Assembly: GCA_021157605.1 (NCBI GenBank)
Contig: JAGGWG010000006.1
Coordinates: 2,387-66,386 of the forward strand
Direction: 5' to 3'
Length of the DNA: 64,000 nt
From: a bacterium
Lineage (GTDB): Bacteria > Patescibacteriota > UBA1384 > JAGGWG01
The stretch's first letter is position 1; each line of letters begins with the position of its first letter. Under the pieces are notes generated by a model. That model was not told the origin of the DNA, ran no database searches, and saw only the letters and a program-made list of their open reading frames with translations. A program made the position numbers and the translations under genes. Positions 38,866 through 61,559 of the stretch are shown piece after piece.

Positions 38866-38869
38866 ATTT

Positions 38870-39340: not shown

Positions 39341-39343
39341 AAT

Positions 39344-41096: not shown

Positions 41097-41099
41097 TGG

Positions 41100-44245: not shown

Positions 44246-44284
44246 CTTTACAAGCAAGTTTTTTGTTTTTACTCTTAAAGGGCA

Positions 44285-46036
44285 ATGCCAGATCCCTTAG
44301 AGGAGATTAAACAAAAAGTTGATATTGTTGATTTAATCTCTTCTTATATTTCTTTAAAAAAGGCAGGTCGCAACTATAAAGCCCTTTGCCCTTTTCATCA
44401 GGAAAAAACCCCTTCTTTTATGGTTTCCCCGGAAAAACAGATTTGGCACTGTTTTGGTTGTGGTCGCGGAGGTGATGCCATTTCCTTTGTTATGGAAATG
44501 GAGGGTTTGGAGTTTTATGAGGCTTTAAAGTTTTTAGGGGAAAAAGTGGGGGTAAAAGTAGAGCCCCTAAACCAAGAGGCTTATTCAGAGAAAAAGCGCC
44601 TCTATGAGCTAAATGAGATAGCGGCTAAGTTTTTTCAGTATGTTTTATGGAAAACTGCTCCCGGCAAGAAAGCACTGAAGTATTTGCGTGATCGCGGACT
44701 AAAAGATACAACTATTGATGAATTCCACATAGGTTATGCTCCTAATCAAAAAGATGCTTTAAGCAAATTTCTGCTTAAACGTAAATACCCTGTTCCACTT
44801 TTGGTAAAATCAGGTTTAGTTATTAAAAAAGATAATCCGTCTCCAAAAGAAACTCCTATTTTTGATAGGTTTCGCGGTCGCGTAATCTTTCCTGTATTTA
44901 ATCAGGGGGGTTCAATTGTGGGTTTTTCTGGAAGAATTATGCCTCATTTGGAAAGCGACAATTTAGCTAAATATCTTAATTCTCCTGATACCCCTGTGTT
45001 TAATAAAAGTTTTGTTTTGTATGGCTTAAACTTTGCCAAGCAGGCAATTATGAAAAAGGGTTTTGTTGTTTTAGTAGAGGGACAGATGGATGTTATCTCT
45101 GCTCATCAAGCAGGCTTTTTAAACACAGTGGCTTCTTCTGGCACTTCCTTAACTGAACCTCAGCTTGATTTGCTCCGCCGATTTACTAATAAGATATATT
45201 TTGCCTTTGATCAAGATTCAGCTGGGCAAGTTGCTACTGAAAGGGGGATTGAGTTAGCTCTTAAGAAAGGTTTTTTGGTATATGTAGTGTTTATTCCTAA
45301 GCCGTATAAAGATGTAGATGAGTGCGTAAAGTCTAACCCTAAAAAATGGGAGGAAGCCTTATCTAAAAAGCGCAGTATTATTGAATACTTTTTTCAGATT
45401 TATGCCAAAGGGGCCAAGACTATTGAGCAGCGCAAAGAAGCAGCAGAAAAAGTTTTGCTTTGGATTAAAGTGATCCCTGACCCGATCTTACAGGGAGAGT
45501 GGATGCAAAAGCTGAGTTCTGCTCTTGATATTGGAGAACCCTATCTTTATGAGGCTTTACAGAATCTCTCTAAAGATAAAGTTAAAACTCAACCAGTCGG
45601 GGGAGACAAAGCTAAATCTTCTTTTGGCAAAGAGGAAGTAAAAAAACGAATTGTGGCTTTTTTGTTTGTTTTTCCTTCATTCTATAAAAGATCAAAATCT
45701 AAACTAAATAGACTTTTGAAGCAAAACAAACTTTACAATCTTTGGTTTAAATTCTACAATCAGAAAGATAGAGTTAAAGATAGTTTTTTGGCTCGTCTTA
45801 AAAGCCCAGAGTTGCCTTTAGCAGTACTGGAAGTGGAGAATGATTATGATCAGGGTGACAAAAAGTTGGCTTGGCAGGAATTTAATGATTTAGTGCAGTT
45901 TTTATACAGAGAAGCAAAAGAGATGCAGATTGCTAAGCTTCAGCGTCAGATTAAAATCTGTGAGAAGAAAAAAGATTCCCTTCATCTTAAAAAACTTCTT
46001 AGAAAATTGCAAGATTTAATTATGGATAAACAATAA
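44285..46036 (+). CDS. dnaG: DNA primase
   Basis: It has the CHC2 zinc finger [30 protein letters not shown] and a TOPRIM domain ([12 protein letters not shown]). Confidence 0.9.
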
Positions 46037-48894: not shown

Positions 48895-49629
48895 TCAGTA
48901 TCTTTCTATTTCTCCTGCTTTTTGGCGGTATTGGCAGTATTCGCAAGTTGTTTTTGGCTTAGGGAGTTTATCGCTTTGCAGTATTTTTTTGATTTCTTTT
49001 AGTGTTGGCTCTATCCAAGAGGTTGAGCCTTTATAAGGCAGAAGCTTAACATCAAACTCCAGTTTGCCGTCAAAAGCTTTGCGGTCACGCTTGGCATTAA
49101 CATAGACAAAGTAGGCAGTGTCTGAAACCTTAAAGCCATTGTTTCTAAAAAGCCATTGATAGATTTCCAGCTGTCTTTTGTATCCTTCTTTCCATTCTCC
49201 GTCTAAGGTTACCTCCCCGTTAATACTCGTAGCTTTATAATCAACCACAATCAGCTCTTCTTTTTTGCTGATCCAAATGTCGTCAATAGCTCCATAAACC
49301 AAAAAATTAGTTTCAGGATCATGGTACTGAATACCTTGCCTGAAATTACGCCAGTTTTCCAATTCTTGATGCTGAAATGGTACTGCCTCTAAGCCGTAGT
49401 TTTTGAGTAGGGGGTGAGTGGAGTTTTTAGCGCGATGAATATCAAACTCTTTTTTAAGCAAATGATCAACAGCGCTGTTAAGAGTGAAAGCCGGCCACGA
49501 GGGTCGTCTGATGCCTAGTTTTACATCTAGGTAGAAACATCTTGGACACTCCACAAACAACTCAATTTTTGACCGACTGAGTTTGAAGGGGCTTTTTGGT
49601 TTTTGAAAGAAAAGATTTTGCTGCGGCAT
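48895..49629 (-). CDS. Cas4/RecB-like PD-(D/E)XK nuclease (orphan, no CRISPR array or cas genes nearby)
   Basis: It has SKIELFVECPRCFYLD at the N-terminus, a core IDDIWISKKEELIVVDYK (D...D/ExK) and the C-terminal Cys pair CEYC. Confidence 0.55.
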   Translation of the reverse strand: MPQQNLFFQKPKSPFKLSRSKIELFVECPRCFYLDVKLGIRRPSWPAFTLNSAVDHLLKKEFDIHRAKNSTHPLLKNYGLEAVPFQHQELENWRNFRQGIQYHDPETNFLVYGAIDDIWISKKEELIVVDYKATSINGEVTLDGEWKEGYKRQLEIYQWLFRNNGFKVSDTAYFVYVNAKRDRKAFDGKLEFDVKLLPYKGSTSWIEPTLKEIKKILQSDKLPKPKTTCEYCQYRQKAGEIERY

Positions 49630-49880: not shown

Positions 49881-50612
49881 TTAAATCCTTTTTAGGTATT
49901 TTTCTATTCTTTGTATTTTTTTATCATCCAACTTATCAATTTTCTCCAGTATATATTTTAGTAAATAATGTAGTTTGTGGCTTAAGGCATTTGAGTCAAT
50001 TCCTATTTCATTTTTTCTTGTTAATGCGAATACATCTCGACTTTGATAAAAGAGAACAATAGAACGGAAGTCAGCTTTTGGCATAAAAGGCAGACCTGCG
50101 GCCGGTATATTTTTTGGTGTAAATTCATGTACGAGACTATTCCTTACTCTTAAAAGCTTTTCAATTTCTTCATCATTTAAATTTGTCAGTCTTTTCGTCG
50201 CCTTGAGGAGCTTTTTAATTTTTTTGTGCGTTCCTACCTTTAATTCTCCTTCTTTTGGCATCTGGCCAAAAGGTCTTAATAAGAAATCTGTTATCCATTT
50301 TTTACTTCTGCTTCTATATAATTTTGTTATTTTTATTTTTGCTTCTTCTAATTCTTTTATTTCTTTTTTGCTCCAAAAATCTTTTTCTTTGCTTTCTACA
50401 ATTGCGTTAACTGTTCCAAGAAACTCGATAGTTGCCAAGGTAGATAAAAGAACTGTGAAGTTGCCCCCTCCGATTGGTATTTCTCGGCTATCTTTCTCAA
50501 TGGTGGATACACATTTTGTGTATAGAAAGGTATTGCTGTCAGCAATGGAATAGCTTACTATTTTTGCGATTTTTTTGCTTACCTTATTTTTGAGAATCTT
50601 TTTTTTATTCAC
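49881..50612 (-). CDS. Hypothetical protein with a HEPN-type R-N-x3-H motif (predicted RNase-like effector)
   Basis: It has EIEKLLRVRNSLVHEF (Rx4-6H with N after R) in a helical context. It is 243 aa and overlaps the upstream gene by 8 nt. Confidence 0.4.
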   Translation of the reverse strand: MNKKKILKNKVSKKIAKIVSYSIADSNTFLYTKCVSTIEKDSREIPIGGGNFTVLLSTLATIEFLGTVNAIVESKEKDFWSKKEIKELEEAKIKITKLYRSRSKKWITDFLLRPFGQMPKEGELKVGTHKKIKKLLKATKRLTNLNDEEIEKLLRVRNSLVHEFTPKNIPAAGLPFMPKADFRSIVLFYQSRDVFALTRKNEIGIDSNALSHKLHYLLKYILEKIDKLDDKKIQRIEKYLKRI

Positions 50613-51561
50613 AGACTTCTTTTTTTTTAATACTCAAAGGGAAAAATATAAGTTTGAGCAAAAAGGTTATGATGAAAATTATGCTTAGTATAGCTAACGT
50701 AATTAGAGATAGTGTAAGTGGTAGCCAGGGAATTTTGGCAAGCAAAAAACCTAGATATGCAAGGCTAGCAGGGAATAGTTGCCGGATTAATAACAATATA
50801 CCGAGACAAATTATGATCCATGCTGATAACAGAAAGAATTTGTAAGTCCAGTATGGCCATTTATCCTTCATCAGTTTTTCTCCGCATACAATTTTGGTAG
50901 TTTCCCAAATAACCTCTCCCATTAGCAGTCCTTCTTTAGTTATGAGTATGCCATCGCGTGTGTCTTGACCATTTGCGAATTTGGCAAATCCGCGCATAAC
51001 TAAATTTTTTAGGATTCTATCTCTGCCGATCTTGTCTACTTCTTCCTGTTTGATTTTCATATCGTCTAGTTTTGGAGAATAACTATCTATATCGGCTTGT
51101 TTTAAATTGACTATAAGATTAGAAATTATCTTTTCTTTTGCTTCGGCAGGCAGTCTTTTTTCATCTGGTGGCAACCGGTCTTTGTCATTTCTAAGCTGTT
51201 TTTCTAACTTTCTTATATCTTCCAAAAAAATCAGCCAACTCTTTTCCAATACATCCAAAACAGCCTCGGCAAATTGTTTCTCTTCCTGTGTATCGAGATC
51301 CTGGTTTAGTTTTTCGCGCTGTGCGAGTAGATGGTGTTCGTATTTCTTTTTTCTTGCCTCTATGGTTTTGGCTTTTTCAAAGAGATCAAATTCAAATATA
51401 GGACTGCCCAGATGTTTATGTCCCCAATAAGTCCACCGTAAGATTCTTTTTTCAATAGGCCAAAGGCTTTCTTTTTGGTGGTCTGCTTGGGCATTTAATT
51501 GTTGGAGGGTCTGGAAAAGTTCCAATTTTTTGTAAAATTTAATAGTAAAAGGCAGGTTCAT
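50605..51561 (-). CDS. Hypothetical protein with a soluble charged coiled-coil N-domain and 2-3 C-terminal TM helices
   Basis: 318 aa. The C-terminal segments FFLLSAWIIICLGILLLI and LTLSLITLAILSIIFIITFLL are hydrophobic. It is translationally coupled to the HEPN-motif gene. Confidence 0.4.
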   Translation of the reverse strand: MNLPFTIKFYKKLELFQTLQQLNAQADHQKESLWPIEKRILRWTYWGHKHLGSPIFEFDLFEKAKTIEARKKKYEHHLLAQREKLNQDLDTQEEKQFAEAVLDVLEKSWLIFLEDIRKLEKQLRNDKDRLPPDEKRLPAEAKEKIISNLIVNLKQADIDSYSPKLDDMKIKQEEVDKIGRDRILKNLVMRGFAKFANGQDTRDGILITKEGLLMGEVIWETTKIVCGEKLMKDKWPYWTYKFFLLSAWIIICLGILLLIRQLFPASLAYLGFLLAKIPWLPLTLSLITLAILSIIFIITFLLKLIFFPLSIKKKEVCE

Positions 51562-51684
51562 GCTGTATTTATTTTACTACAAATACTAATCTGTCAAAGT
51601 TAGAGCTAGTTCCGCGTAGCTTTTCCATCTGCTGTTACTTTACAAATCTGCCTCCGAAGTCTGCTATCTCTTTAAAATGTTTGC

Positions 51685-52488
51685 TCAACAATCCTCTCTA
51701 GCTTCCTGGCCCAACAGCCATTTTTCTTTCTTCAGAACTGCCTCGTAGGTTTTTTTGTGCCAATAGAACAGCCTTTTGTCAAGTTCATCTGATATATGAT
51801 AAAAATGAAGATGGGCATACATTTCGGTTAATTTTTTTGCAAAAATCTTTTCCTTAGGTTTAAGCTCTTGAGGTTTTTTCAGCTTCTTCAACCACTGTCG
51901 GGCTTCAACATGCTCCGGCACATTGAGTTTTAGATGTAATACTATATTTTTATACGCATCGCTGCTAAATTTAAATCTCCGGATTTCTTCCAATGTGTTG
52001 TTAAAACTTCGAATTTCTTGATTAAGTCGTGCAAGATATTCATTAATTTTGGGGCCCAGTTTCGCGGTTCCTGGCAATAAAAGTGTTTGTCCAAGCACTG
52101 TATGAACATCAGGATTAAAGATATTATAGAAAGGATTGCCCCACTCTCTCAGCTTGCTGTCCGCTGTTCTTGCCATGTCGTACCGGTGATATCCCCCTTC
52201 TTCATATTTCGTCCAGCTTCCCAGAATCTCTAATTGTTTCTTCAATAGATTAATCGCCTGCATTTTTTCTTCGAAAGTTTTTTTCTCATAAAGGTAAAAA
52301 GCTACCTCCACAGAGAGTCCAGGTATAAGAGCAGGAATAATACCTGAAAGAATATTCTGCAATGAAAAAATATATCCAGTTTTCACCCATCTTGCCCATC
52401 CAAGAGCTAGTATCAAGAGGACTAGGAGTGTGGCAAACCAAAGAGTGGCTGGGTAATTTCTCAATGTTTTCTTCCACAAACTGCACAT
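51685..52488 (-). CDS. Hypothetical protein with two N-terminal TM helices and a soluble C-domain
   Basis: 267 aa. The N-terminus ATLWFATLLVLLILALGW and IIPALIPGLSVEVAFYL is hydrophobic. I recognised no catalytic motif. Confidence 0.4.
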   Translation of the reverse strand: MCSLWKKTLRNYPATLWFATLLVLLILALGWARWVKTGYIFSLQNILSGIIPALIPGLSVEVAFYLYEKKTFEEKMQAINLLKKQLEILGSWTKYEEGGYHRYDMARTADSKLREWGNPFYNIFNPDVHTVLGQTLLLPGTAKLGPKINEYLARLNQEIRSFNNTLEEIRRFKFSSDAYKNIVLHLKLNVPEHVEARQWLKKLKKPQELKPKEKIFAKKLTEMYAHLHFYHISDELDKRLFYWHKKTYEAVLKKEKWLLGQEAREDC

Positions 52489-52584: not shown

Positions 52585-52612
52585 ACAAAAAAGGGGCTCT
52601 GCCGAACCCCTT
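52585..52612 (-). terminator. Rho-independent terminator downstream of hsdR
   Basis: On the minus strand, AAGGGGUUCGGCAGAGCCCCUU forms a hairpin. It is followed by a U-run, which reads as the plus-strand A6 at 52587-52592. Confidence 0.5.
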
Positions 52613-52666
52613 ATTCTTATTCTTATCTTTCTCACTTCATCCTCTCCGCCACCACTTCGGCGAATT

Positions 52667-55663
52667 TTAATCTGAAGAACCAGCATCTTCAAACAAAAAT
52701 TGAGCTTGTTTTAAAGTAACCTGAGCAATGGGCTCAGCCTCCTGTGGCGGAATTCCCGATCGATAAAGAATCCTTTTAATTTTGCCTCTAATCCTAGCAA
52801 GCAACACGTCATTATTCGTCCAATCTACCGCCAGATCTTCTTTAATTGCCTGTACCACTTCCTTTGCTAACCGTCTCAATTCTTTATCCTCTTTTATATA
52901 CTTTTTCCCTTTTGTCAATGCGTCATAAAAAGCTAACTCTTCCTCACTCAAGCCTAATTTTTGCCCCTTTCTCTCTTCTGCTTTTATCTCCTTTGCCAAG
53001 TCAATCAACTTATCAATAGTTTCGGCAGAATCTATAAATTTCTTCTCATATTTCTCAATTACCTCTTCCAATCTTTCTCTAAGAGAGTCATACCGCACTA
53101 TATTTTTCCTTAATCGCGAATTAATTTCATCACTTAGCAATTTTCTTAATACTTGAATCGCCAAATTGGGGTAGGCCATCTGCTTTAGTCTTTTCAAAAA
53201 TTCTTCATCAAAGATCGAAACCTCCGGCTTTTTCTTGCCTTGCATCTCTAAGATATCTATTGGTTTGTCAGCTGCAATGCTCTCGGCAATCAGCTCTTTA
53301 ACTGTAGTTTCTATTTTCTGCTCCACCGTTAGTGGCCGAACAATTACTCTTTTAACAATATTTTTCTTAATCGCCTGAAAGAACTCTACTTCTTTTTGAA
53401 TTTTATCTGCTTCGGGATGGGGCCGAATAAAAGCCCACAATTTAAACAATGCTGTTGCCTCTTTTATAAAACGTTTTTGTTTTTCTTCATCAATTCTCCC
53501 TGTTTCTTCATCAGTAATAACTTTGTTAATCGCCCGCTGAAAGAGTCGAGCCAATTTCCTTCCTGGTAGCTTGTGCCAGCTTTTGTATCTCATCCCAGCA
53601 AAATAAGAACGAACGATATCGTATTTCTCGTGCATTCTCTCAATTAACTCCTCTAGAGGGATCAAGGCTTCTTTGACCTCTTTTTCACTATAGATGTTCA
53701 ATGCTTTCCTCAAATCATCCGCAATCCCAATATAATCAACGATTAAACCTCCCTGCTTATCCTTAAAAACCCTGTTCACTCTCGCAATCGCCTGCATCAA
53801 AGTATGGTTTTTCAAAGGCTTGTCCATATACATTGTGGCCAAGCAAGGCACATCAAACCCCGTCAACCACATATCGCAAACAATCACCATTTTGAGCGGA
53901 TCATCTGGATCCACAAATCTCTCTTTTAGCTGTTCCACATCCAAATCATCCTGAACCTTTCCTTTAAAATCAGTCAACCCGGAAACAGCCACTGCACACT
54001 CTGGAGCCTCAGGGTTTTTAGAAATTAGTTTATACATCTTGACCGCTACTTTTCGACTAATGGTCACCACCATCGCTTTTCCTTCAACTGCCCGATGGTT
54101 GAAATGCCAGACGATATCTCGGGCGATTTTCTCTAGCCGGTCAGGGTCACTGATCAGCTTTTCTAATCTGGAATACCTCTTCTTAAGTTCTTCTTTTGCC
54201 TCTGTATCTAAATTCGCCGTAAGATGGTCAAAATCTTCATCTATAAACTCGTTTGTTAAATGCAAAGGCACAAGTCTTCCTTCGTAATAGATAGGAACGA
54301 CTGCTTTATCTTCCACCGCTCTATCGATAGGATAAACACTAATATAATCTCCAAAAACCAACCTCGTATCTCTATCCCGAAGGCTGATTGGAGTCCCAGT
54401 AAAACCGAGAAAAGAAGCATTGGGCATTGCCTGACGAGCATTGCCTGCAAGTTTTGCGTATTGCGATCGATGAGCTTCGTCAGCAATAACAATTAGATTA
54501 TGCTTCTTAGAGAGAAGAGGGTATTTTTCTTCTTCACGCTCGGTCTCAAATTTTTGAATTGTGGTAAAGATTATGTCTCCACTTGCTCTTTTAAGTCTCT
54601 CTCGTAAATCTCTGATTGACTTTGCCTGTTTAGGAAAGAGGCCACACCTTTTAAACTTCTTAAAAAGTTGGTTGTCAAGATCGTTTCTGTCAGTCAAAAA
54701 TACAAAAGCTGGATTTTTAAGTTCTTTAAGTTGTCGTACTTTGTTCACATAAAAAATCATTGAAATAGATTTTCCCGAGCCTTGCGTGTGCCAAAAAACT
54801 CCAATGCGACCATCTCCTTTAGGCTTAACTTTTGTCTTTGTGGCTTCAATCGCTTTGTTCACCCCAAAGTATTGGTGATAAAGGGGCATCTTTTTGACAA
54901 AAGTGCTCCCTTCTTTCTCAAAAATGATGAAATTTTGAACGATATCTAAAAAACGAGCCTTGTGGAAAATGCCTTTAATCAAAACCTCAAGTTGGTTCAC
55001 TCCTTTTGTTTTTTCGTTTTCATTCTCAATTTTTTTCCAAACCGAGAACCATTCGCGGGTAGAACTAATTGTACCGTGCTTAGCTTCTAAAAGATCAGAA
55101 ATAACAATGACTTGATTGTATTTAAAGATATCGGGGATATCTTTTTTGTAACCTTTCATCACTTGATCGTAAGCATCATCGATTGTGGCATTTTCTGTAG
55201 CCGGGTTTTTGAATTCAAAAAGAGCCAAAGGCAAACCATTTACAAAGACTATGAGATCGGGCCGCCTTACTTTTTCTGTGCCTTGAACGGAAAATTGGTT
55301 AACGATTAAAAAGTCATTTCGCTCCGGCTGCTCAAAATCAATTAGCTTAACATAATCCCATTTTTCTTCGTCAATCTTGAGCGGTACACCCTGAATAAGC
55401 AGTCGGTAAAAGTTCTTGTTAGCAATTATAAGGTCCGGATGTTCGATTCGTTGAATTTCCTCAATCGTTTCTTCTATTGCTGCTTGAGGAATTCCCGGAT
55501 TCAAATTTACCAAAGCCTCTTTGAGCCTTCTTTCTAAAATTACCTGGCGATAATCTCTTCGTTCCAATACCAAATCTTTTGGACCAAAGGCATAATCATA
55601 CCCAAGGCTTTTAAACCACTCAATTGCTGGTTGTTCTGTTAGGGTTTGTTCGATTAGTTTCAT
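52667..55663 (-). CDS. hsdR: Type I restriction enzyme R subunit
   Basis: 998 aa. It has an N-terminal PD-(D/E)XK region, an SF2 helicase motif I (FWHTQGSGKS) and motif II VIADEAHRSQ. The C-terminal half is helical. Confidence 0.9.
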   Translation of the reverse strand: MKLIEQTLTEQPAIEWFKSLGYDYAFGPKDLVLERRDYRQVILERRLKEALVNLNPGIPQAAIEETIEEIQRIEHPDLIIANKNFYRLLIQGVPLKIDEEKWDYVKLIDFEQPERNDFLIVNQFSVQGTEKVRRPDLIVFVNGLPLALFEFKNPATENATIDDAYDQVMKGYKKDIPDIFKYNQVIVISDLLEAKHGTISSTREWFSVWKKIENENEKTKGVNQLEVLIKGIFHKARFLDIVQNFIIFEKEGSTFVKKMPLYHQYFGVNKAIEATKTKVKPKGDGRIGVFWHTQGSGKSISMIFYVNKVRQLKELKNPAFVFLTDRNDLDNQLFKKFKRCGLFPKQAKSIRDLRERLKRASGDIIFTTIQKFETEREEEKYPLLSKKHNLIVIADEAHRSQYAKLAGNARQAMPNASFLGFTGTPISLRDRDTRLVFGDYISVYPIDRAVEDKAVVPIYYEGRLVPLHLTNEFIDEDFDHLTANLDTEAKEELKKRYSRLEKLISDPDRLEKIARDIVWHFNHRAVEGKAMVVTISRKVAVKMYKLISKNPEAPECAVAVSGLTDFKGKVQDDLDVEQLKERFVDPDDPLKMVIVCDMWLTGFDVPCLATMYMDKPLKNHTLMQAIARVNRVFKDKQGGLIVDYIGIADDLRKALNIYSEKEVKEALIPLEELIERMHEKYDIVRSYFAGMRYKSWHKLPGRKLARLFQRAINKVITDEETGRIDEEKQKRFIKEATALFKLWAFIRPHPEADKIQKEVEFFQAIKKNIVKRVIVRPLTVEQKIETTVKELIAESIAADKPIDILEMQGKKKPEVSIFDEEFLKRLKQMAYPNLAIQVLRKLLSDEINSRLRKNIVRYDSLRERLEEVIEKYEKKFIDSAETIDKLIDLAKEIKAEERKGQKLGLSEEELAFYDALTKGKKYIKEDKELRRLAKEVVQAIKEDLAVDWTNNDVLLARIRGKIKRILYRSGIPPQEAEPIAQVTLKQAQFLFEDAGSSD

Positions 55664-55672
55664 TTTGCCTCA

Positions 55673-56911
55673 TTAGAAAAAATAAAAATACATCCCACTA
55701 ATCCAACACCTCTTTTGCCCTTCAAAATCTGGGCCGCAAAAAGGAAGGGTTCGAGAAGTGCTGTCATTCAAAAGAAAGGGTTTGGTAGGATAACGTAGTC
55801 CCGTCCCAATATTAGCCTCATTTTTGTAAACATTTGCTATATCATCACAGATCACCGCTAAAAAAGAAGCGAAGACAGTGTCATTATGAATCATTTTGTT
55901 TTTTTGGAAAATCTCAAAAAAAGTCTCTCCCTTTTCATTCTTTAAAAATTTCGACGCTTCAACACAAATGGTCACTCTGAAATCAGCTTGAAAATCTGCT
56001 TGCAATTGCTGCTGATACACAATGTTTGCTTTTCTCAAAATGGTTTTTAAAAGTCGGGGAGACATTGTTTGGGGAAATTCTTGAAAAAGGGCCATAAAGA
56101 AAGAAGCAAGTTGATCTTTGGCGGGCTTATATTCTTCATTTTCTAAAAAATCAGGATCAAAAATTTGTTCGATAAACTCTTCAAAATGTGAGATTTTGGG
56201 GTAGAAAAACTCTGCGTAGTCCAAAAACTTTAAATATCTCTGGGTCTCTTTCTGGAAGTTTTCACTACCTATGAGAGCAATGACTATAAATTTCTTTTTT
56301 AGATTTTCTCTGCACAAAATGTTTCTGATAAAGTAACTAAGAGTTTCGAGGAAAAAGAGTCCTTCTTCTCCTGAACGATCAGCATCTTCTATTATCAAAA
56401 AGAAATCTTGCCGCTTCAAAAGTTTCTTCGACCCTTCTAGGAACAACTTTTGAAATTCAACCATAGCTTCCGGGGGGAGTTCGCGAAACAGATCCAATAG
56501 TCCAGTTAATCCACCAAGACGGGCAGAAGACAAAATGGCTTTAAAAAGTTCAATAGCGAAATTTCGGCCACTTTTCCCTTTCATCTTCTTTTCCAAAAAA
56601 GATAACTCCGAAGTCTGTTGAACCATCTCTAACAACAGCCCCTCCCATAAAAGTTTTCTGTTGGGATAACTCCAAGCCTCAAACTTTATCCATTTTTCCT
56701 TTTTCGACCTTTTTCTTTTGTCCATTATTTGGTACAACATTGTGCTCTTACCTATACCATAAGGACCAATAAGACCTACTAGAGCTGGCTTATCGATTGA
56801 AGACAATTTTTGCTCAAAGGATCTGATATATTCTGAAAAATTTAAAAGATCCGGCACCTCGGGTGTCTCTTGAAGCAGTTTCAAGTTTTTAATAAAACCT
56901 TTTGTCTTCAT
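55673..56911 (-). CDS. KAP-family P-loop NTPase embedded between hsdS and hsdR
   Basis: It has the Walker A motif LIGPYGIGKST, the KAP-typical FEAWSYPNRKLLWEGLL and the Walker B motif FFLIIEDADRS. It starts 2 nt after the hsdS stop and stops 9 nt before hsdR. Confidence 0.6.
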   Translation of the reverse strand: MKTKGFIKNLKLLQETPEVPDLLNFSEYIRSFEQKLSSIDKPALVGLIGPYGIGKSTMLYQIMDKRKRSKKEKWIKFEAWSYPNRKLLWEGLLLEMVQQTSELSFLEKKMKGKSGRNFAIELFKAILSSARLGGLTGLLDLFRELPPEAMVEFQKLFLEGSKKLLKRQDFFLIIEDADRSGEEGLFFLETLSYFIRNILCRENLKKKFIVIALIGSENFQKETQRYLKFLDYAEFFYPKISHFEEFIEQIFDPDFLENEEYKPAKDQLASFFMALFQEFPQTMSPRLLKTILRKANIVYQQQLQADFQADFRVTICVEASKFLKNEKGETFFEIFQKNKMIHNDTVFASFLAVICDDIANVYKNEANIGTGLRYPTKPFLLNDSTSRTLPFCGPDFEGQKRCWISGMYFYFF

Positions 56912-56913
56912 GG

Positions 56914-58137
56914 CTATACCCTTATTTCCCCACTCATTAATTTAGGCAAAAGTAAATCGCGAAGAGACGATAAAAGTTGGTTTTCTTTTACATTCCGGAT
57001 AAGTTGTTTATAAAGGGGGAAGCACATTTTTTCGAAATGATTAAGCAGCTTCTTTGGAGGGAGAACAAAAGGCATTCTGCAAAGATCATCCCATTTTACC
57101 ACAGGCATCTTGGTCCCCGATGCGCATTTGGAAGCGAATTCTATTGTAGAAGCAGAGAATAAGAGAGAAATTGAAAATGAATATAACTCTCGCTTTCTAG
57201 GATAAATCACAAAAACTGATTGATTTGTGACACCATCGAAAGGTGCTATAACTACCTTGTGAAAATAAGGCCTTACGGCTCCGAAAAGAATATCCCCTTT
57301 GTAAAATCTAAATGCCGATGTCTTAATCTCTGCACCCTTACCAAAAGTGGAAACACTCAGACTTCGCCGAGGAAACCTCCCTAGATCAAGTAACTTTTCT
57401 CTCTTCCACTCCTCAAAGGTTTTAATTCTCTCCCTCCGTCGCTCTACGATCTCTCCCAACCTCTCTACTCTCCATCCTTCCGGAATTTTGCCTAATTCGC
57501 TGTCAACAAATTTCACTTTTTCCCAACCCGGGAATCTAAATTTCACAAACCACTCTTCAAAAATCGCCTGCGCCATTTCCTCCAGTGTCTGGTTAATCTT
57601 GTTGTTGAGCTCAATCTTCTCATCAAAAGCAGAAAGAATATCCGCAATGCGCTTTTGTTCGTTGAGGTCTTGGGGGATTGTTATTTCAAAGTTCTCAAAT
57701 TTGGATTTAGAAATATTCGTGTATACCGACCCACTATATTTTAACAATCGAGGTTTCACGTATTTAAAACAGTAATAAAGGAATTCGGGTAGAATTTTAT
57801 CTATATCGCAAATTACAGAATTGATTTGTTGATTAGTAAAGCTTTCCCTGCATGTTATTCCGACTTCTCCTACAGTAGCCAAACACGAAACCACAACAGC
57901 TTTGGGTGGCAACTTTAAATTTCTCATCGATTGTGCCCCTTTTTCTGAAAGAGTTCGCTCTGTTTTCTCTATGTAGCGCTGATTTTTTAGATCGGGAATG
58001 GTAATAAATGGGTAACGACCGCCGAAATTTCTTGGATCAGTAGTAGAAGGAGTTTTGCCTGTTATAACCTTCCCGATTTCTTTAATTTTCACGCTTTTCC
58101 ATTTTTTACTCTTGGAAAACATCTTTTCGTCCTCCAT
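56914..58137 (-). CDS. hsdS: Type I restriction-modification specificity subunit
   Basis: It has two target-recognition domains separated by conserved helical spacers (e.g. the IFEEWFVKFRFPGW and LRDLLLPKLMSGEI repeats). An alternative start at the MFSK codon (58122) has a better GGAGGA Shine-Dalgarno sequence. Confidence 0.85.
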   Translation of the reverse strand: MEDEKMFSKSKKWKSVKIKEIGKVITGKTPSTTDPRNFGGRYPFITIPDLKNQRYIEKTERTLSEKGAQSMRNLKLPPKAVVVSCLATVGEVGITCRESFTNQQINSVICDIDKILPEFLYYCFKYVKPRLLKYSGSVYTNISKSKFENFEITIPQDLNEQKRIADILSAFDEKIELNNKINQTLEEMAQAIFEEWFVKFRFPGWEKVKFVDSELGKIPEGWRVERLGEIVERRRERIKTFEEWKREKLLDLGRFPRRSLSVSTFGKGAEIKTSAFRFYKGDILFGAVRPYFHKVVIAPFDGVTNQSVFVIYPRKRELYSFSISLLFSASTIEFASKCASGTKMPVVKWDDLCRMPFVLPPKKLLNHFEKMCFPLYKQLIRNVKENQLLSSLRDLLLPKLMSGEIRV

Positions 58138-58169
58138 TTTTAATTTTTAACTTTATCCTCCACCAATTT

Positions 58170-59075
58170 TTATTTAAAAAGCTCCTCCAAGAAAATCCTA
58201 ATTTTAACTGCTGCACCTTCCACGTCTGACAATTGAATATTGATCGAGTATGAATGTTGAGCACTATCAATTAAAATTTTGTAATTCATTACCTCTTTGT
58301 AAATTCTTTTGTTGGAAAGCAACCTTTCCGCTTTCCCCAAGAGATTTTTTGTCTCTAAATACTGCCCCTTTTCATCTTTGACTTCTGACTCTTTGTTTAT
58401 TTGCTGGAACTTCCTCACAATAGAAAGAGGCAAAATTCTTCTTAAAATTAATATAGATGCTATTGGTCTTTTGTTGGCGAAATTAAAATTAAAATCATCA
58501 CACAATATTTTCAAATCTGGAGGTAGCTTTTTCACCAAGCTGTTTGGAAATAAATCTTTCTCAGTTCGACTGCTTCTTATTGTTGGTTTATCTTTAGTTT
58601 TGCTAATCGTCCAATCAAGAAGCTTATCACGCACAGCCTCTAAAACTGAAACTATCTGGCTTTGAGGGAAAAACATTGCAAACTCTGTCCGCATCTTAAC
58701 TGCTTGTGCAAGCATTTCTTGCATGGGTGGTGGATATTTAATTTGCAAGTAGTCTTCACTTTTATCAAGCAGGTTCTCAAGTTCGGGAATTGACTCAAAG
58801 ATGTGTTGTCGAGAAAGCAAATCTTGAGTTTTGTCGTCTTTGGGAAACATCACGGGTATCCATCGACCCAAAACAGGATTAAGTGCCTTGGGCTCACCTC
58901 TTATCAACCTATAGCTAGGTGGTTTGCCTGAACTGTAACCATTCATTTCGCGATCAATCCATTTTAAAAATTCTTTATCGCCCAATTCACTCGCCAGGAT
59001 CTTTGCCTTCCTTAATAACTCCGAAACTTTTGCTTCAGATTTAATGATCTCGTTTTTAAATTCCTGGATATCCAT
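58170..59075 (-). CDS. Hypothetical ~300-aa protein embedded between hsdM and hsdS (possibly Abi-like)
   Basis: I prefer the MDIQEF start at 59075 with a GAGGG Shine-Dalgarno sequence. The track starts at 59117 and would overlap the upstream gene by 32 nt. The N-terminal segment LKWIDREMNGY resembles abortive-infection (AbiTii-like) N-domains, but this is unverified. Confidence 0.4.
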   Translation of the reverse strand: MDIQEFKNEIIKSEAKVSELLRKAKILASELGDKEFLKWIDREMNGYSSGKPPSYRLIRGEPKALNPVLGRWIPVMFPKDDKTQDLLSRQHIFESIPELENLLDKSEDYLQIKYPPPMQEMLAQAVKMRTEFAMFFPQSQIVSVLEAVRDKLLDWTISKTKDKPTIRSSRTEKDLFPNSLVKKLPPDLKILCDDFNFNFANKRPIASILILRRILPLSIVRKFQQINKESEVKDEKGQYLETKNLLGKAERLLSNKRIYKEVMNYKILIDSAQHSYSINIQLSDVEGAAVKIRIFLEELFK

Positions 59076-59085
59076 ACTTCCCTCT

Positions 59086-59379
59086 TTATCTGATAACGAA
59101 AAATTTATAAATCTCAAAAAGCAAACTTGCTATAGCAATTAGCATTCCAATGCCCGCTATGATAACACCAGCTAAAGTGATTTTATTTAAGGCTTTTGTT
59201 AACTTCTCTGAAGAGGCGGTGGCCTTCTCGATATTCGAATTAAGGTTTTTTAGCTCTTCCTTAATCCTTCCCACTGTACGAAAAAAGCCTGAAGGCCAAG
59301 GTCTCACAGAGAAATAGGAAGTCAAAGTGTCCAAAAATTTCCGGATTTTTTCATAATCTTCTTCCTTAAATCTCATCAT
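59086..59379 (-). CDS. Small tail-anchored membrane protein (97 aa)
   Basis: It has a soluble helical N-terminus and a single C-terminal TM (ITLAGVIIAGIGMLIAIASLLF). There is a 4-nt ATGA overlap with the GIY-YIG stop. Confidence 0.35.
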   Translation of the reverse strand: MMRFKEEDYEKIRKFLDTLTSYFSVRPWPSGFFRTVGRIKEELKNLNSNIEKATASSEKLTKALNKITLAGVIIAGIGMLIAIASLLFEIYKFFVIR

Positions 59380-59681
59380 TTTCCTTTCTGTTCTTTATTA
59401 AATGGCGGTTTTCTTCTCCTAACAAGAAAAGTCTCTAGCCTTTTGGCTTCTTCTACAGAGTTAGTAAGAATCACTCCAAACTTTACCGCTTGCTGTTTCT
59501 GCTCTCGAATCTCCCGCACACTTTCCAAAATTCTTTTTGGCAAACGTCCTCTTTTCGCTCGCCCCACTTTTTGAAGTCGACCAGAACGAGTGAAGATCCC
59601 GTATACCCCCGGCTTGTCTTTGGGCAATTGTTTGAGAGTGACTTTGGTGATCTTTTTGATTGAAACAAATTTTTTACGCAT
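59376..59681 (-). CDS. Small stand-alone GIY-YIG nuclease domain protein (YhbQ-like, 101 aa)
   Basis: It has KPGVYGIF...GRLQKVGRAKRGRL...ILESVREI...VILTNSVEEAKRLETFLVRRRKPPFN. This places the GIY / Y(K)VG / Arg / Glu / Asn catalytic pattern in order. It overlaps the hsdM stop by 8 nt and has a GGGAG Shine-Dalgarno sequence. Confidence 0.6.
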   Translation of the reverse strand: MRKKFVSIKKITKVTLKQLPKDKPGVYGIFTRSGRLQKVGRAKRGRLPKRILESVREIREQKQQAVKFGVILTNSVEEAKRLETFLVRRRKPPFNKEQKGK

Positions 59682-61278
59682 TTTGTCTCCCTAAACGCTT
59701 TAAGTTATGCTTAATTTTTCTTTCTAGCTTCCTCGACTCCTTGAAATATTTTTCTAATTGCTTCGTCAATTTTTTCATCTTCTTCTCAAACGGTATGCCG
59801 TCGTCTTCTTCGGGCTTAATACCCACATATCTTCCCGGCGTCAAAACATAACCTGCTTTTCTAATTTCTTCGATAGTGACTGCCTTACAAAATCCTGGCT
59901 CATCCTTGTATTTTCCGGCTCCCTTTTCTCCCCGCCAAGCTCTAACAGTATCAGCGATTTTCTGAATCTGCTTGTCAGTGATCACATATTGTTTTCTGGA
60001 AATTGGCTCATACATTTCGCGCGCATCAATAAACAAAGTTTCACCACGACGGTCTCTAAATCTTTTATTTCTTTTGTCTTTGGTCAAAAACCAAAGAGAG
60101 ACCGGCAATGAAACGTTGTAGAAAAGTTTGGGCGGACAGGCAATAATTACGTCTACCAAATCATCTCTAATAATTCTTTTTCTAATTTCGCCTTCTTTGC
60201 CTCCCACAGCCAGGGCGCCATTTGCCATCACAAAACCAGCTACTCCGCCGGGAGCCAAGTGGTAAACAAAGTGCTGGATCCACATAAAGTTTGCGTTGCT
60301 GTTAGGAGGAAGACCATATTTGATCCTTGGATCTTTCTGAATTCTATCTGCGCCCCAATCTGAAAAGTTAAAGGGGGGATTGGAAATTACAATATCTGCT
60401 CGGAGATCAGGGAATTTGTCATTGTGGTAAGAATCGCCTTGTTCAACGTGGGCGATGATCCCTCTAATTGCCAAATTCATTTGGCAAAGCCGCCAGGTGG
60501 TTGAGTTTTTTTCTTGGCCATAAAAGTTTATTTTGCTGGGATCTTTTTTGTGCATTTCAATAAATTTTCTGCTTTGGATAAACATACCTCCGCTTCCGCA
60601 GGCTGGGTCAAAAACCCGACAGTTTTCATAGGGCTCCAAAATCTCTATCAGTAACTTTACTAAACATCGAGGCGTGTAGAATTCGCCACCTCTTTTGCCC
60701 TCTGCAGAAGCAAACTGACCAATGAAATACTCATAGATTCTTCCCAAGAGATCTTTGTCTTTTTCTTTTTGTTCTTGAATCTTGCTAAAGAGATTGATCA
60801 GCTCGCCTAGAATTCTGGGTTCTAAATCTCTGACTCGCGTGTACTCCACAAAAATTTTAGGCAGAACACCTTTTAGTTGAGGGTTTTCTTGTTCTATTAA
60901 TTCCATTGCCTTGTCTAGCTTACGAGCAATATCAGAGGAGGTAGCGTTTTCTTGAAGATAGGACCATCGGGCTTCTGGGGGAATATAAAAAATGCCCTGG
61001 CTAAGGTAAGAATCTTTGTCTTCAGTAATAGCTTCTCGAGCTTGAGGCGTAGGGGCGTAATAGGGGCTGTTTTTGTCTTGGGTGGCTTTTTCGAGAAATC
61101 TCTTTCGCTTATCAAAAGCCTCAGAAATGTATTTTAAAAAGATCAATCCCAAAACAATATGTTTGTATTCAGAGGCATCCATGCTGCCTCGCAGCTTGTC
61201 AGCTGCTTGCCAAAGTTGGTTTTCAAAATCGATGTCTTTCATTTCTGCTATCTTAGCAGATTTACCCCTAAAAATCAA
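59674..61278 (-). CDS. hsdM: Type I restriction-modification N6-adenine DNA methyltransferase subunit
   Basis: It has an N-terminal HsdM_N helix domain, the motif I region FDPACGSGGMF and motif IV NPPFNFSDW. Confidence 0.9.
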   Translation of the reverse strand: MIFRGKSAKIAEMKDIDFENQLWQAADKLRGSMDASEYKHIVLGLIFLKYISEAFDKRKRFLEKATQDKNSPYYAPTPQAREAITEDKDSYLSQGIFYIPPEARWSYLQENATSSDIARKLDKAMELIEQENPQLKGVLPKIFVEYTRVRDLEPRILGELINLFSKIQEQKEKDKDLLGRIYEYFIGQFASAEGKRGGEFYTPRCLVKLLIEILEPYENCRVFDPACGSGGMFIQSRKFIEMHKKDPSKINFYGQEKNSTTWRLCQMNLAIRGIIAHVEQGDSYHNDKFPDLRADIVISNPPFNFSDWGADRIQKDPRIKYGLPPNSNANFMWIQHFVYHLAPGGVAGFVMANGALAVGGKEGEIRKRIIRDDLVDVIIACPPKLFYNVSLPVSLWFLTKDKRNKRFRDRRGETLFIDAREMYEPISRKQYVITDKQIQKIADTVRAWRGEKGAGKYKDEPGFCKAVTIEEIRKAGYVLTPGRYVGIKPEEDDGIPFEKKMKKLTKQLEKYFKESRKLERKIKHNLKRLGRQNA

Positions 61279-61346
61279 TCTTGATTTTTGGAATAAATAT
61301 TGTGTAATTTGGGCTGGTTTTGGGGGTGAAAGTAGTGTTAGGGCTT

Positions 61347-61378
61347 AAAACAAAAACCTTCGCAAAGTATTGCGAAGG
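61347..61378 (-). terminator. Rho-independent terminator separating the zinc-ribbon genes from the hsdM operon
   Basis: A perfect 9-bp stem CCTTCGCAA / TTGCGAAGG with a 4-nt loop is followed on the minus strand by a U-rich run (plus AAAACAAAAA). Confidence 0.6.
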
Positions 61379-61391
61379 TGAATTGATTGGG

Positions 61392-61559
61392 TTAATCCTC
61401 TCTGCTGCTAGTGAGCTGCCCCCATTCTTTTTCTCCATAAACGACTTTTCCGCAACGGGGACAGCGGTAAACCACTGTTGTCAGGTTGTCCCTGACAGTA
61501 GTGGTTCCCCCTTTTTGGAGGAGAGTTTCACAATTTGGGCAGTGGTCATGATGATCCAT
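61392..61559 (-). CDS. 55-aa zinc-ribbon protein (CPNC...CPRC), not in the supplied ORF track
   Basis: My hand translation gives MDHHDHCPNCETLLQKGGTTTVRDNLTTVVYRCPRCGKVVYGEKEWGQLTSSRED. It lies in a G+C-rich patch and is the first of three tandem zinc-ribbon ORFs. Confidence 0.35.
   Translation of the reverse strand: MDHHDHCPNCETLLQKGGTTTVRDNLTTVVYRCPRCGKVVYGEKEWGQLTSSRED

What the first reader, a model, noticed from the sequence alone, without database searches (positions are those of the whole stretch)
52667..61278. Composite Type I RM operon carrying four embedded accessory genes
All seven genes are co-directional with at most 32-nt gaps or with overlaps: hsdM, GIY-YIG, tail-anchored TM, ~300-aa unknown, hsdS, KAP NTPase, hsdR. 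The operon is bounded by terminators at ~61347-61378 and ~52585-52612. Type I operons are known to host latent suicide modules, such as PrrC in prrABCD and RloC. Here two different insert positions are occupied at once by proteins unrelated to PrrC. This suggests an RM-coupled multi-component defence locus that I cannot match to a described system.
Basis: partly seen in the sequence, partly recalled or inferred. Interest (0 to 1): 0.75.

Follow-up and report, generated by a model that had tools for sequence, protein, structure and literature searches.

The report
Type I restriction operon with embedded defence genes
This is an intact, horizontally mobile Type I restriction-modification operon from an uncultivated bacterium that carries four extra defence-type genes between its subunit genes; the arrangement is real, but it is a further example of the already described habit of defence genes nesting inside restriction operons, not a new kind of system.

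Summary
Seven co-directional minus-strand genes lie at 52667-61278, with gaps of -8, -4, +10, +32, +2 and +9 nt, and terminator-like hairpins flank them.

- The 101-aa protein is a UvrC-like GIY-YIG mini-nuclease. Its family is 60-93% identical and often lies directly after hsdM.
- The 412-aa protein is a soluble KAP/Cdc6-like ATPase. It recurs between hsdS and hsdR in three other, distant Type I operons, and also sits beside Shedu-like and GmrSD nucleases.
- The 97-aa protein is tail-anchored in the membrane. Its membrane segment recurs upstream of stand-alone AbiTii-HEPN genes.

A 90%-identical operon in a related genome sits at another chromosomal site. It keeps the GIY-YIG and membrane genes, lacks AbiTii-HEPN, and has a different gene in place of KAP.

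The inserts are therefore separately exchangeable cassettes in two known insertion hotspots. This is the "guilt-by-embedding" pattern seen with PrrC, DarTG2 and TgvAB. Functional coupling to the restriction complex is neither shown nor excluded. I rate it a new variant of a known kind, of moderate interest.

The parts
59674..61278 (-). hsdM, Type I N6-adenine DNA methyltransferase (534 aa from the TTG; an ATG 12 codons in is an alternative start)
   Evidence: Pfam N6_Mtase E 3e-108 and HsdM_N E 2e-29. PADLOC MTase_I E 5e-167. Motifs DPACGSG and NPPF are present.
59376..59681 (-). 101-aa stand-alone GIY-YIG mini-nuclease, UvrC-N-terminal-like, pI 11.6. Its start overlaps the hsdM stop by 8 nt.
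   Evidence: NCBIfam UvrC E 8e-6. A family profile (A3) hits the UvrC GIY-YIG domains 1yd6 and 1ycz at E 6e-7 over the whole domain. Invariant or near-invariant residues: Y27, G40-R41-A42-K43, R46, R50, E83, N95. The second Tyr is replaced by K38. The family has 61 clusters at 51-93% identity, nearly all 99-104 aa long.
59086..59379 (-). 97-aa tail-anchored membrane protein: soluble N-terminal part of about 65 aa and one C-terminal membrane helix
   Evidence: Kyte-Doolittle 19-residue maximum of 2.58 at residues 69-87. It is 86% identical in the related operon L056. Its last 42 residues are 73-79% identical to the C-terminus of an 81-aa protein that precedes stand-alone AbiTii-HEPN genes in L019-L023. 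PADLOC AbiTi scores only E 0.0085.
58170..59075 (-). 301-aa AbiTii-HEPN protein: AbiTii N-terminal domain (about aa 1-161, window 58593-59075), a disordered linker, and a DUF4145-clade HEPN C-terminal domain (aa 175-301, window 58173-58553)
56914..58137 (-). hsdS, specificity subunit with two target-recognition domains (407 aa)
   Evidence: Pfam Methylase_S E 1e-42 in two stretches. PADLOC Specificity_I E 8e-90. Against L056, only the central and C-terminal conserved regions keep nucleotide homology.
55673..56911 (-). 412-aa soluble KAP-family P-loop NTPase with an Orc1/Cdc6-like AAA+ fold and no fused effector domain
52667..55663 (-). hsdR, restriction/translocase subunit (998 aa)
   Evidence: Pfam HSDR_N, SWI2_SNF2, T1R_D3-like and T1RH-like_C. 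NCBIfam hsdR E 1e-193. Motifs D136...E150-x-K152, GSGKS and DEAH are present.
61356..61379 (-). Terminator-like hairpin upstream of the operon; it would end the preceding transcription unit
   Evidence: 10-bp stem with 5 GC pairs, followed by a T-run.
52591..52612 (-). Terminator-like hairpin 55 nt after the hsdR stop
   Evidence: 9-bp stem with 5 GC pairs, followed by a T-run.
52632..61305 (-). Extent of the horizontally mobile block: the operon plus about 27 nt of upstream promoter-like sequence
   Evidence: blastn against L056 from a related genome. Homology of 82-86% runs exactly over 61305-59098 and 55664-52632, while the housekeeping flanks are 69-76% identical. In L056 the operon lies between the homologues of window positions 41837 and 43424.

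Best explanation
This is a catalytically intact Type I R-M operon (hsdM, hsdS, hsdR) that moves horizontally as a unit. Its two inter-subunit junctions have been colonised by separately exchangeable defence-type cassettes, all read from the operon's own promoter.

Slot 1 (hsdM|hsdS) holds three genes:
- a 101-aa UvrC-like GIY-YIG mini-nuclease;
- a 97-aa tail-anchored membrane protein;
- a 301-aa abortive-infection protein made of an AbiTii sensor domain and a HEPN domain that is probably an RNase.

Slot 2 (hsdS|hsdR) holds a soluble KAP/Cdc6-like ATPase.

Proposed working. HsdMSR methylates host DNA and cuts unmethylated incoming DNA. The embedded genes are second-line layers for phages that escape restriction.
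- The AbiTii domain recognises a phage component and releases the HEPN domain to cleave RNA and stop growth. The membrane protein may be an optional partner.
- The KAP protein acts as an ATP-driven switch or sensor that works with a nearby nuclease.
- The GIY-YIG protein supplies an accessory nuclease activity.

Shown: gene order and spacing, domain identities and folds, conserved catalytic-type residues, recurrence of each family in the same slot of distant Type I operons, independent presence or absence of each insert, and mobility of the operon.

Inferred: co-transcription, anti-phage function, RNase and nuclease activity, the triggers, and whether any insert needs HsdMSR.
For: Identity of the parts.

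Slot recurrence.
- AbiTii-HEPN has hsdM within 2.2 kb upstream in 16 of about 20 informative loci and hsdS downstream in about 16. The HsdM proteins in those loci are only 30-68% identical to the window's. One operon has the order hsdR-hsdM-...-hsdS.
- The GIY-YIG gene lies directly after hsdM in L056 and L059-62, and sits inside the operon in L065-67.
- KAP lies between hsdS and hsdR in L009 and L064, and in L003-5 together with other inserts there.

Independence of the cassettes.
- L056 has HsdM 92% and HsdR 90% identical. It keeps GIY-YIG (88%) and the membrane protein (86%), lacks AbiTii-HEPN, and has a 187-aa gene where the window has KAP.
- Many operons have AbiTii-HEPN alone: L021, L028, L036.
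- The membrane protein plus AbiTii-HEPN pair occurs outside any Type I operon in L019-23.
- KAP occurs beside a SduA_C nuclease (L001/2), among GmrSD genes (L063), or alone (L006).
- GIY-YIG occurs beside LexA-like and methyltransferase genes without hsdMSR (L057, L068).

Other inserts fill the same slots elsewhere: DUF3800-like genes, Abi_C, PIN-like genes, ATPases and membrane proteins.

Literature.
- Embedding in Type I, BREX and DISARM systems is common and 96.7% co-oriented (Payne 2024).
- The hsdS|hsdR site has been called a recombination hotspot (PMC12255303).
- A sensor-plus-RNase model for AbiTii-HEPN has been proposed (PMC3710099).
Against: - No transcript or phenotype data exist for this uncultivated lineage.
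- The HEPN motif lacks the canonical Arg (it reads K-x7-H), so RNase activity is not assured.
- The KAP protein has no effector domain, and no partner has been identified for it.
- A 101-aa GIY-YIG domain has no obvious DNA-targeting part.
- The strict positional conservation of AbiTii-HEPN (hsdM|hsdS) and KAP (hsdS|hsdR) is stronger than pure random insertion predicts. So is the recurrence of HEPN protein + hsdS + KAP in the Peribacteria operon L009. Both could reflect functional coupling.
- The locus counts are not de-replicated. They come from pattern-based scans that favour the conserved C-terminal domain.
Confidence: 0.6

Rival explanations
1. PrrC-like guard. One or more inserts, above all AbiTii-HEPN with or without the membrane protein, and possibly KAP, bind the HsdMS or HsdR complex. 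The complex keeps them latent. They fire when a phage anti-restriction protein disables it, so the locus is one integrated multi-component system.
For: - AbiTii-HEPN lies almost always between hsdM and hsdS, across Type I families whose HsdM is only about 30% identical and even across different gene orders.
- KAP is always immediately upstream of hsdR when embedded.
- The combination of HEPN C-terminal-domain protein, hsdS, KAP and hsdR recurs in L009.
- Genes overlap or abut, which suggests translational coupling.
- PrrC is a precedent: a HEPN-superfamily nuclease found almost only inside Type I operons.
Against: - Each insert is absent from close relatives of this operon or present outside Type I operons.
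- The HEPN C-terminal domain with other N-terminal domains is embedded in only 5 of 19 informative loci.
- The partner HsdM proteins are too diverse for one conserved interface.
- In tested cases of embedding (TgvAB, HEC systems) the embedded genes work on their own.
Confidence: 0.2
2. Accessory subunits or regulators of the R-M enzyme itself rather than separate defences. Examples: KAP as a Cdc6/TnsC/BrxC-like ATP-dependent loader or restriction-alleviation switch for HsdR, and GIY-YIG as an extra nicking or cleavage module used by the translocating complex.
For: - The KAP fold is closest to DNA-bound ATP switches: Cdc6/Orc1, TnsC, MuB and BrxC.
- KAP homologues always neighbour a DNA nuclease: HsdR, SduA_C or GmrSD.
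- GIY-YIG is translationally coupled to hsdM in the window and in L056.
- The GIY-YIG family is unusually conserved and is confined to R-M and methyltransferase neighbourhoods.
Against: - HsdR already has an intact PD-(D/E)xK nuclease and motor.
- The closest operons do without KAP (L056, L059), and most Type I operons do without either gene.
- No co-variation with the HsdR family is seen: KAP occurs with HsdR proteins only 34-39% identical to the window's.
Confidence: 0.12
3. Selfish passengers. The inserts are addiction or toxin-like modules, or mobility genes (a GIY-YIG homing-type nuclease), that hitch-hike in a frequently transferred operon and give the host no anti-phage benefit.
For: - The operon is mobile and more conserved than its chromosomal flanks.
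- The 'genomic sink' idea and the selfish benefit of embedding are discussed in Payne 2024.
- The GIY-YIG family is 60-93% identical across very different contexts, as expected for a recently spreading element.
- HEPN proteins are often toxins.
Against: - No cognate antitoxin-like partner is evident for HEPN.
- The 101-aa GIY-YIG has no DNA-binding domain of homing-endonuclease type.
- No relative of it was found in 2.9 million viral contigs or in PHROGs.
- No integrase, transposase or target-site duplication lies at the block ends.
Confidence: 0.08

Closest known systems
EcoprrI (hsdMSR) with embedded PrrC anticodon nuclease; RloC
   Same: A latent RNase gene is nested and co-oriented inside a Type I operon. 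PMC3710099 places the PrrC nuclease domain in the HEPN superfamily, as for the C-terminal domain here. The logic is layered R-M plus abortive infection.
   Different: PrrC has an ABC-ATPase N-terminal domain and sits between hsdS and hsdR. Here the sensor is an AbiTii domain, the HEPN is of the DUF4145 clade without the Arg, and the gene sits between hsdM and hsdS. No PrrC or RloC model matched. Guarding by the R-M complex is not shown here.
EPEC RRDM island (RptR, hsdM, hsdS, DarTG2, hsdR; PMC12255303) and V. cholerae VPI-2 Type I cluster with TgvAB (PMC11411939)
   Same: These are multi-ORF Type I operons with an independent defence system in the hsdS|hsdR junction. The genes are co-oriented, and the site has been described as a recombination hotspot.
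   Different: The embedded genes differ: DarTG2 toxin-antitoxin and a GmrSD-like type IV system, against a KAP ATPase here. Those islands use one slot; this operon uses two, with four genes. No RptR-like regulator is seen here.
Guilt-by-embedding candidates (Payne et al. 2024, bioRxiv 10.1101/2024.01.29.577857; PADLOC PDC models)
   Same: It is the same general phenomenon: thousands of genes embedded in Type I, BREX, DISARM and Hma systems, 96.7% co-oriented, and many of unknown function.
   Different: None of the four inserts reaches a convincing PDC match. KAP against PDC-S20 scores only E 2e-4 over the P-loop region. That census used RefSeq genomes, whereas these families are largely confined to uncultivated, CPR-type lineages.
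Lactococcus lactis AbiT (AbiTi + AbiTii)
   Same: The AbiTii domain matches strongly (Pfam E 5e-36). A small gene lies immediately upstream, giving a two-gene layout.
   Different: The lactococcal AbiTii has no HEPN domain (PMC13064643, PMC3710099). The upstream 97-aa protein is a tail-anchored membrane protein with only an E 0.0085 match to AbiTi, and AbiTi is reported to have an endoribonuclease-like fold. AbiT is plasmid-borne, not R-M-embedded.
AbiTii-NTD + c2405-family HEPN proteins (DUF4145-like clade; Anantharaman et al. 2013)
   Same: The architecture is identical: AbiTii N-terminal domain, then a HEPN domain that keeps the His but lacks the Arg of Rx4-6H. The domain links to DUF4145 through distant members.
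   Different: No direct comparison with c2405 itself was possible. The proteobacterial plasmid AbiTii proteins I retrieved share only the N-terminal domain. The family here is small, 80 clusters at 50% identity among 1.84 billion representatives, and mostly from uncultivated bacteria.
KAP-type and related ATPases of defence systems (QatA, PifA, BrxC)
   Different: The QatA and PifA hits cover only the P-loop region (E about 2e-5). No QatBCD or BREX partners are present. The protein is much shorter (412 aa) and has no effector or membrane insert.

Membership tests
Type I restriction-modification system | HsdM with AdoMet-binding and NPPF catalytic motifs | tested here: met
   N6_Mtase E 3e-108. 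DPACGSG at residue 224 and NPPF at residue 300.
Type I restriction-modification system | HsdS with two target-recognition domains | tested here: met
   Methylase_S in two stretches, E 1e-42. Full-length Specificity_I models match.
Type I restriction-modification system | HsdR with an N-terminal PD-(D/E)xK nuclease and an SF2 motor | tested here: met
   HSDR_N, SWI2_SNF2 and T1RH-like_C domains. D136...E150-x-K152, GSGKS and DEAH motifs.
Type I restriction-modification system | Sequence-specific methylation and ATP-dependent restriction | not testable with these tools
   Needs methylome data or expression of the operon.
AbiT (L. lactis two-gene abortive infection system) | AbiTii domain protein | tested here: met
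   Pfam PF18864 at 125 bits against a cut-off of 27.6. PADLOC AbiTii E 8e-38.
AbiT (L. lactis two-gene abortive infection system) | AbiTi partner encoded immediately upstream | tested here: inconclusive
   A small gene is present upstream, but the PADLOC AbiTi match is only E 0.0085 at 14 bits. The protein is a tail-anchored membrane protein, unlike the endoRNase-like AbiTi described in PMC13064643.
HEPN superfamily | Four-helix up-and-down HEPN fold | tested here: met
HEPN superfamily | Rx4-6H catalytic motif | tested here: not met
   The His (H274) is invariant, but the Arg is replaced: K266-x3-D270-x3-H274, which aligns with R-x3-N-x3-H in the DUF4145-positive relatives. This matches the published 'conserved H but lacks R' c2405 type.
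DUF4145-like HEPN clade / c2405 family | Sequence relationship to DUF4145 or c2405 | tested here: inconclusive
   The link is transitive only. The C-terminal domain reaches P0246 by phmmer at E 3e-4, and P0246 hits PF13643 at 24.1 bits against GA 23.1. The window's C-terminal domain alone gives no Pfam hit. c2405 itself was not compared.
GIY-YIG nuclease superfamily | GIY and YIG motifs plus the conserved Arg, Glu and Asn | tested here: met
   The profile matches the UvrC GIY-YIG domain at E 6e-7 over the full domain. Y27, R46/R50, E83 and N95 are conserved. The YIG Tyr is replaced by K38, a variant. The single sequence is below Pfam detection.
KAP family P-loop NTPases | Pfam KAP_NTPase above the gathering score, with Walker A and B motifs | tested here: met
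   25.3 bits against 20, covering profile positions 2-290 of 293. GxxGxGKST and EDxD are invariant. Most homologues carry PF07693.
KAP family P-loop NTPases | Transmembrane helices inserted in the NTPase domain (typical of many KAP proteins; stated from my own knowledge of the family description) | tested here: not met
   No segment exceeds Kyte-Doolittle 1.16. Residues 114-143 are a disordered insert.
PrrC/RloC anticodon nucleases | ABC-ATPase N-terminal domain fused to the nuclease domain | tested here: not met
   No PrrC, RloC or ABC-ATPase model matched any of the four inserts in PADLOC, Pfam or NCBIfam.

The most novel reading that the evidence does not exclude
The inserts are not mere passengers. 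AbiTii-HEPN (with the tail-anchored membrane protein), the KAP/Cdc6-like ATPase and the mini GIY-YIG nuclease would dock on HsdM/HsdS/HsdR and form a PrrC-style guard circuit with new sensors. The Type I complex would hold an RNase, an ATP switch and a nuclease latent, and release them when a phage neutralises restriction. This would explain the strict slot conservation: AbiTii-HEPN always at hsdM|hsdS, and KAP always just before hsdR. It would also define a second, widespread family of R-M-guarded suicide effectors in uncultivated bacteria.
Probability: 0.15. Interest if true: 0.7.

Novelty: new variant of a known kind. Interest (0 to 1): 0.35.

Why it matters
The locus is a clean, compact example of one restriction operon stacking several second-line defences in its two junctions, and it comes from poorly studied, probably CPR-type uncultivated bacteria. 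Neighbours include Peribacteria, Magasanikbacteria, Paceibacterota and Patescibacteria.

It yields three concrete, testable candidates that current defence catalogues do not cover:
- a highly conserved 101-aa GIY-YIG family tied to R-M neighbourhoods and LexA-like regulators;
- a rare KAP/Cdc6-like ATPase that always neighbours a DNA nuclease;
- an AbiTii-HEPN family that is embedded between hsdM and hsdS in about 80% of the contexts seen.

If any of them proved to depend on the R-M complex, the PrrC paradigm would extend to new sensors. If they act alone, they are ordinary additions to the list of embedded defence genes.

Tried and rejected
- **Apparent hsdM lesions.** Near-identical metagenome copies L072 and L073 seemed to carry a 44-aa deletion and a split gene in hsdM. 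Alignment shows both are runs of N at scaffold gaps, so they are artefacts.
- **c2405 test through plasmid proteins.** I tried to test c2405 membership using proteobacterial plasmid AbiTii proteins. Only the N-terminal domain matches. The C-terminal part of the Aeromonas protein shows no profile similarity to the window's C-terminal domain (hhalign probability 0.1).
- **Single-sequence Pfam scans.** At E up to 10, the C-terminal domain, the 97-aa protein and the 101-aa protein gave nothing useful.
- **Phage origin.** PHROGs gave no hit for any of the four inserts. No GIY-YIG relative was found in viral contigs. A phage origin is not supported.
- **KAP on plasmids.** No match.
- **PADLOC candidates.** PDC-S20, QatA and PifA hits to KAP cover only the P-loop region at E 2e-4 to 2e-5. 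I do not count them as membership.
- **Mobility signatures.** I searched for an integrase, a transposase or target-site duplications at the ends of the mobile block. None was found.
- **Composition.** The inserts do not stand out: GC 0.36-0.41 against 0.38 for the window.
- **Internal signals.** Internal promoter and terminator hits are at chance level.
- **Unavailable resources.** The afdb50 fold library was not available. The Bouchard 2002 AbiT paper is not held. The supplements of Payne 2024 gave no entry for AbiTii, GIY-YIG or DUF4145.


Full report
**1. Observation**

The seven minus-strand ORFs exist as described. Their intergenic distances are -8, -4, +10, +32, +2 and +9 nt. This uses the ATG at 59075 for the fourth gene, which gives the 301-aa protein annotated in GenBank.

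HsdM, HsdS and HsdR are full length by Pfam, PADLOC and NCBIfam. They keep their catalytic motifs.

The two strongest minus-strand terminator-like hairpins in the region flank the block, at 61379-61356 and 52612-52591. Internal promoter-like and terminator-like hits are at chance level.

The window is a contig of an uncultivated "bacterium" MAG with locus tags J7K05. There, all four inserts are annotated as hypothetical proteins.

**2. What the four inserts are**

(a) 59376-59681, 101 aa, pI 11.6.
- A single-sequence search gives only weak UvrC hits.
- The protein belongs to a tight family of 61 clusters, nearly all 99-104 aa long and 51-93% identical.
- A profile of that family matches the solved UvrC N-terminal GIY-YIG domains at E 6e-7 across the whole domain.
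- Y27, R46/R50, E83 and N95 are conserved. The YIG tyrosine is replaced by lysine.
- It is therefore a stand-alone GIY-YIG mini-nuclease domain.

(b) 59086-59379, 97 aa.
- It has one strong C-terminal hydrophobic helix and no family hit apart from AbiTi at E 0.0085.
- It is 86% identical in the related operon L056.
- Its last 42 residues are 73-79% identical to the C-terminus of an otherwise different 81-aa protein. That protein sits just upstream of stand-alone AbiTii-HEPN genes in L019-L023.

(c) 58170-59075, 301 aa.
- The N-terminal half is an AbiTii domain (Pfam E 5e-36).
- The C-terminal 127 residues are the most conserved part. They also occur behind at least two unrelated N-terminal domains.
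- A full HMMER scan of 1.84 billion representatives finds only 80 clusters, always with this domain at the C-terminus. The most distant of these hit Pfam DUF4145.
- The invariant K266-x3-D270-x3-H274 aligns with R-x3-N-x3-H in those relatives.
- This is the architecture that Anantharaman et al. [quoted passage not shown] They interpreted it as a sensor plus a suicidal RNase.
- I could not compare the domain with c2405 itself.

(d) 55673-56911, 412 aa.
- Pfam KAP_NTPase scores above the gathering cut-off over the whole profile.
- Walker A, Walker B and the W/F/AW motifs are invariant. There is no membrane segment.
- The family is rare: 42 homologues at 42% identity or less. None occurs on PLSDB plasmids.

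**3. Comparative context**

*A close relative at a different chromosomal site.*
- L056 comes from a related genome, GCA_054042585.1. Its operon has HsdM 92%, GIY-YIG 88%, the membrane protein 86% and HsdR 90% identical to the window's.
- It lies at a different chromosomal site, between the homologues of window positions 41837 and 43424.
- Nucleotide identity is 82-86% within the operon and 69-76% in the housekeeping flanks. The homologous block ends exactly at window 61305 and 52632.
- The operon, with its short upstream region, is therefore a horizontally mobile unit. No integrase or target duplication is seen at its ends.

*The middle of the operon is swapped.*
- L056 lacks AbiTii-HEPN.
- It has different HsdS recognition domains and an N-terminal PIN-like extension on HsdS.
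- It has a 187-aa gene where the window has KAP.
- The same 182-187-aa family fills that slot in L059.

*AbiTii-HEPN across 49 loci from genome and metagenome scans.*
- It has hsdM within 2.2 kb upstream in 16 of about 20 informative loci, and hsdS downstream in about as many. The HsdM proteins there are 30-68% identical to the window's.
- L065-67 repeat GIY-YIG followed by AbiTii-HEPN inside an operon of the order hsdR-hsdM-...-hsdS.
- The exceptions are stand-alone pairs of the membrane protein and AbiTii-HEPN (L019-23).
- Versions with other N-terminal domains are embedded in only 5 of 19 informative loci.

*KAP homologues.*
- They lie between hsdS and hsdR in L009 (Peribacteria, together with a HEPN C-terminal-domain protein in slot 1) and in L064. 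In L003-5 they share the slot with Abi_C, DUF3800 and other genes.
- They also lie next to a SduA_C nuclease (L001/2), among three GmrSD genes (L063), or alone (L006).

*The GIY-YIG family.*
- It follows hsdM in L056 and L059-62.
- Elsewhere it sits beside LexA-like S24 regulators and methyltransferases without hsdMSR.

*Other occupants.* Many other genes fill the same two slots in related operons.

**4. Interpretation**

The data fit best a mobile Type I operon with two junctions that act as insertion or recombination hotspots. Each junction holds independently exchangeable defence-type cassettes, co-oriented and probably co-transcribed.

This pattern is already described in general:
- Payne et al. 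2024 found 17,432 non-redundant genes embedded in BREX, DISARM and Type I systems, with 96.7% of embedded genes co-oriented (that figure also includes Hma-embedded genes). They named PrrC as the case almost exclusively embedded in Type I operons.
- The EPEC RptR island has DarTG2 between hsdS and hsdR, and its authors call that site a hotspot.
- V. cholerae TgvAB is embedded in a Type I cluster and works without HsdR activity.

The likely mechanism is layered defence. Restriction acts first. An AbiTii-sensed HEPN RNase follows, possibly helped by the membrane protein. An ATP-switch KAP protein and a small nuclease add further layers. Every step beyond domain identity is inference.

The main rival is a PrrC-like guard arrangement. 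The strict slot conservation and the L009 recurrence keep it alive. The independent distribution of every insert counts against it.

**5. Verdict**

- Observation: confirmed.
- Interpretation: partly supported. The locus is composite and multi-slot, but it is built from recognisable, independently mobile families within a known phenomenon.
- Novelty: a new variant of a known kind.
- Interest: moderate. It rests on three uncharacterised families (mini GIY-YIG, KAP/Cdc6-like ATPase, AbiTii-HEPN) that are good candidates for testing.

Noticed in passing
window 37996-41837 and 43424-45555; L056 3-3845 and 14091-16225: This block of housekeeping genes (NDK, M16 peptidase, BacA, Cu-oxidase_4, DnaG and others) is syntenic with a related genome at 69-76% nt identity. 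In that genome the Type I operon is inserted between these genes. In the window it lies about 10 kb away.
   Followed up: partly
L065 5862-9023 (also L066, L067): Inside a Type I operon of order hsdR-hsdM-...-hsdS lie five genes in a row: a LexA-like S24 repressor gene, two tandem mini GIY-YIG genes (105 and 101 aa), AbiTii-HEPN, and a 179-aa protein with an RNGVAH (Rx4H, HEPN-like) motif. A GmrSD_N gene follows hsdS.
   Followed up: partly
L057/L058 6850-8306; L068-L070 3043-7285: The 101-aa GIY-YIG family repeatedly neighbours a LexA_DNA_bind/Peptidase_S24 gene and DNA methyltransferases outside Type I operons. This hints at an SOS-like regulator of R-M islands in these lineages.
   Followed up: no
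L001 8562-11308, L002; L063 1499-13241: KAP homologues are paired with a SduA_C (Shedu-type) nuclease gene at a 3-nt spacing. In another contig, three KAP paralogues are interleaved with three GmrSD genes and a methylase/helicase pair. KAP therefore always neighbours a DNA nuclease.
   Followed up: partly
L019 3500-3745, L020 2908-3153 against window 59086-59211: The membrane helix and the preceding 'SSEKLTKALNxITLAG' stretch are 73-79% identical between the 97-aa protein and an 81-aa protein with a CPFC motif. That is far more conserved than expected for a simple membrane anchor.
   Followed up: no
L056 8593-9057; L026 2404-2856: A PIN-like segment of about 150 aa (motif 'YFVTNDIKDF') is fused to the N-terminus of HsdS in L056. 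It is a separate ORF after AbiTii-HEPN in L026.
   Followed up: no
window 48895-49629 and 49881-52488: A PD-(D/E)XK/Cas4-like nuclease gene lies here, and three co-directional ORFs (243, 318 and 267 aa) without any Pfam hit lie just downstream of the operon's terminator.
   Followed up: no
window 61470-61506 (+ strand): A very strong 16-bp hairpin followed by a T-run lies about 200 nt upstream of hsdM, between the neighbouring units. It is probably the terminator of a plus-strand unit.
   Followed up: no
window 61250-61305: This sequence upstream of hsdM is conserved between the window and L056. It contains TTGATT, a 17-nt spacer and TAAGAT, ending 7 nt before the internal ATG at 61242. It may be a promoter giving a near-leaderless hsdM mRNA. 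It also suggests the ATG, not the TTG, is the true start.
   Followed up: no
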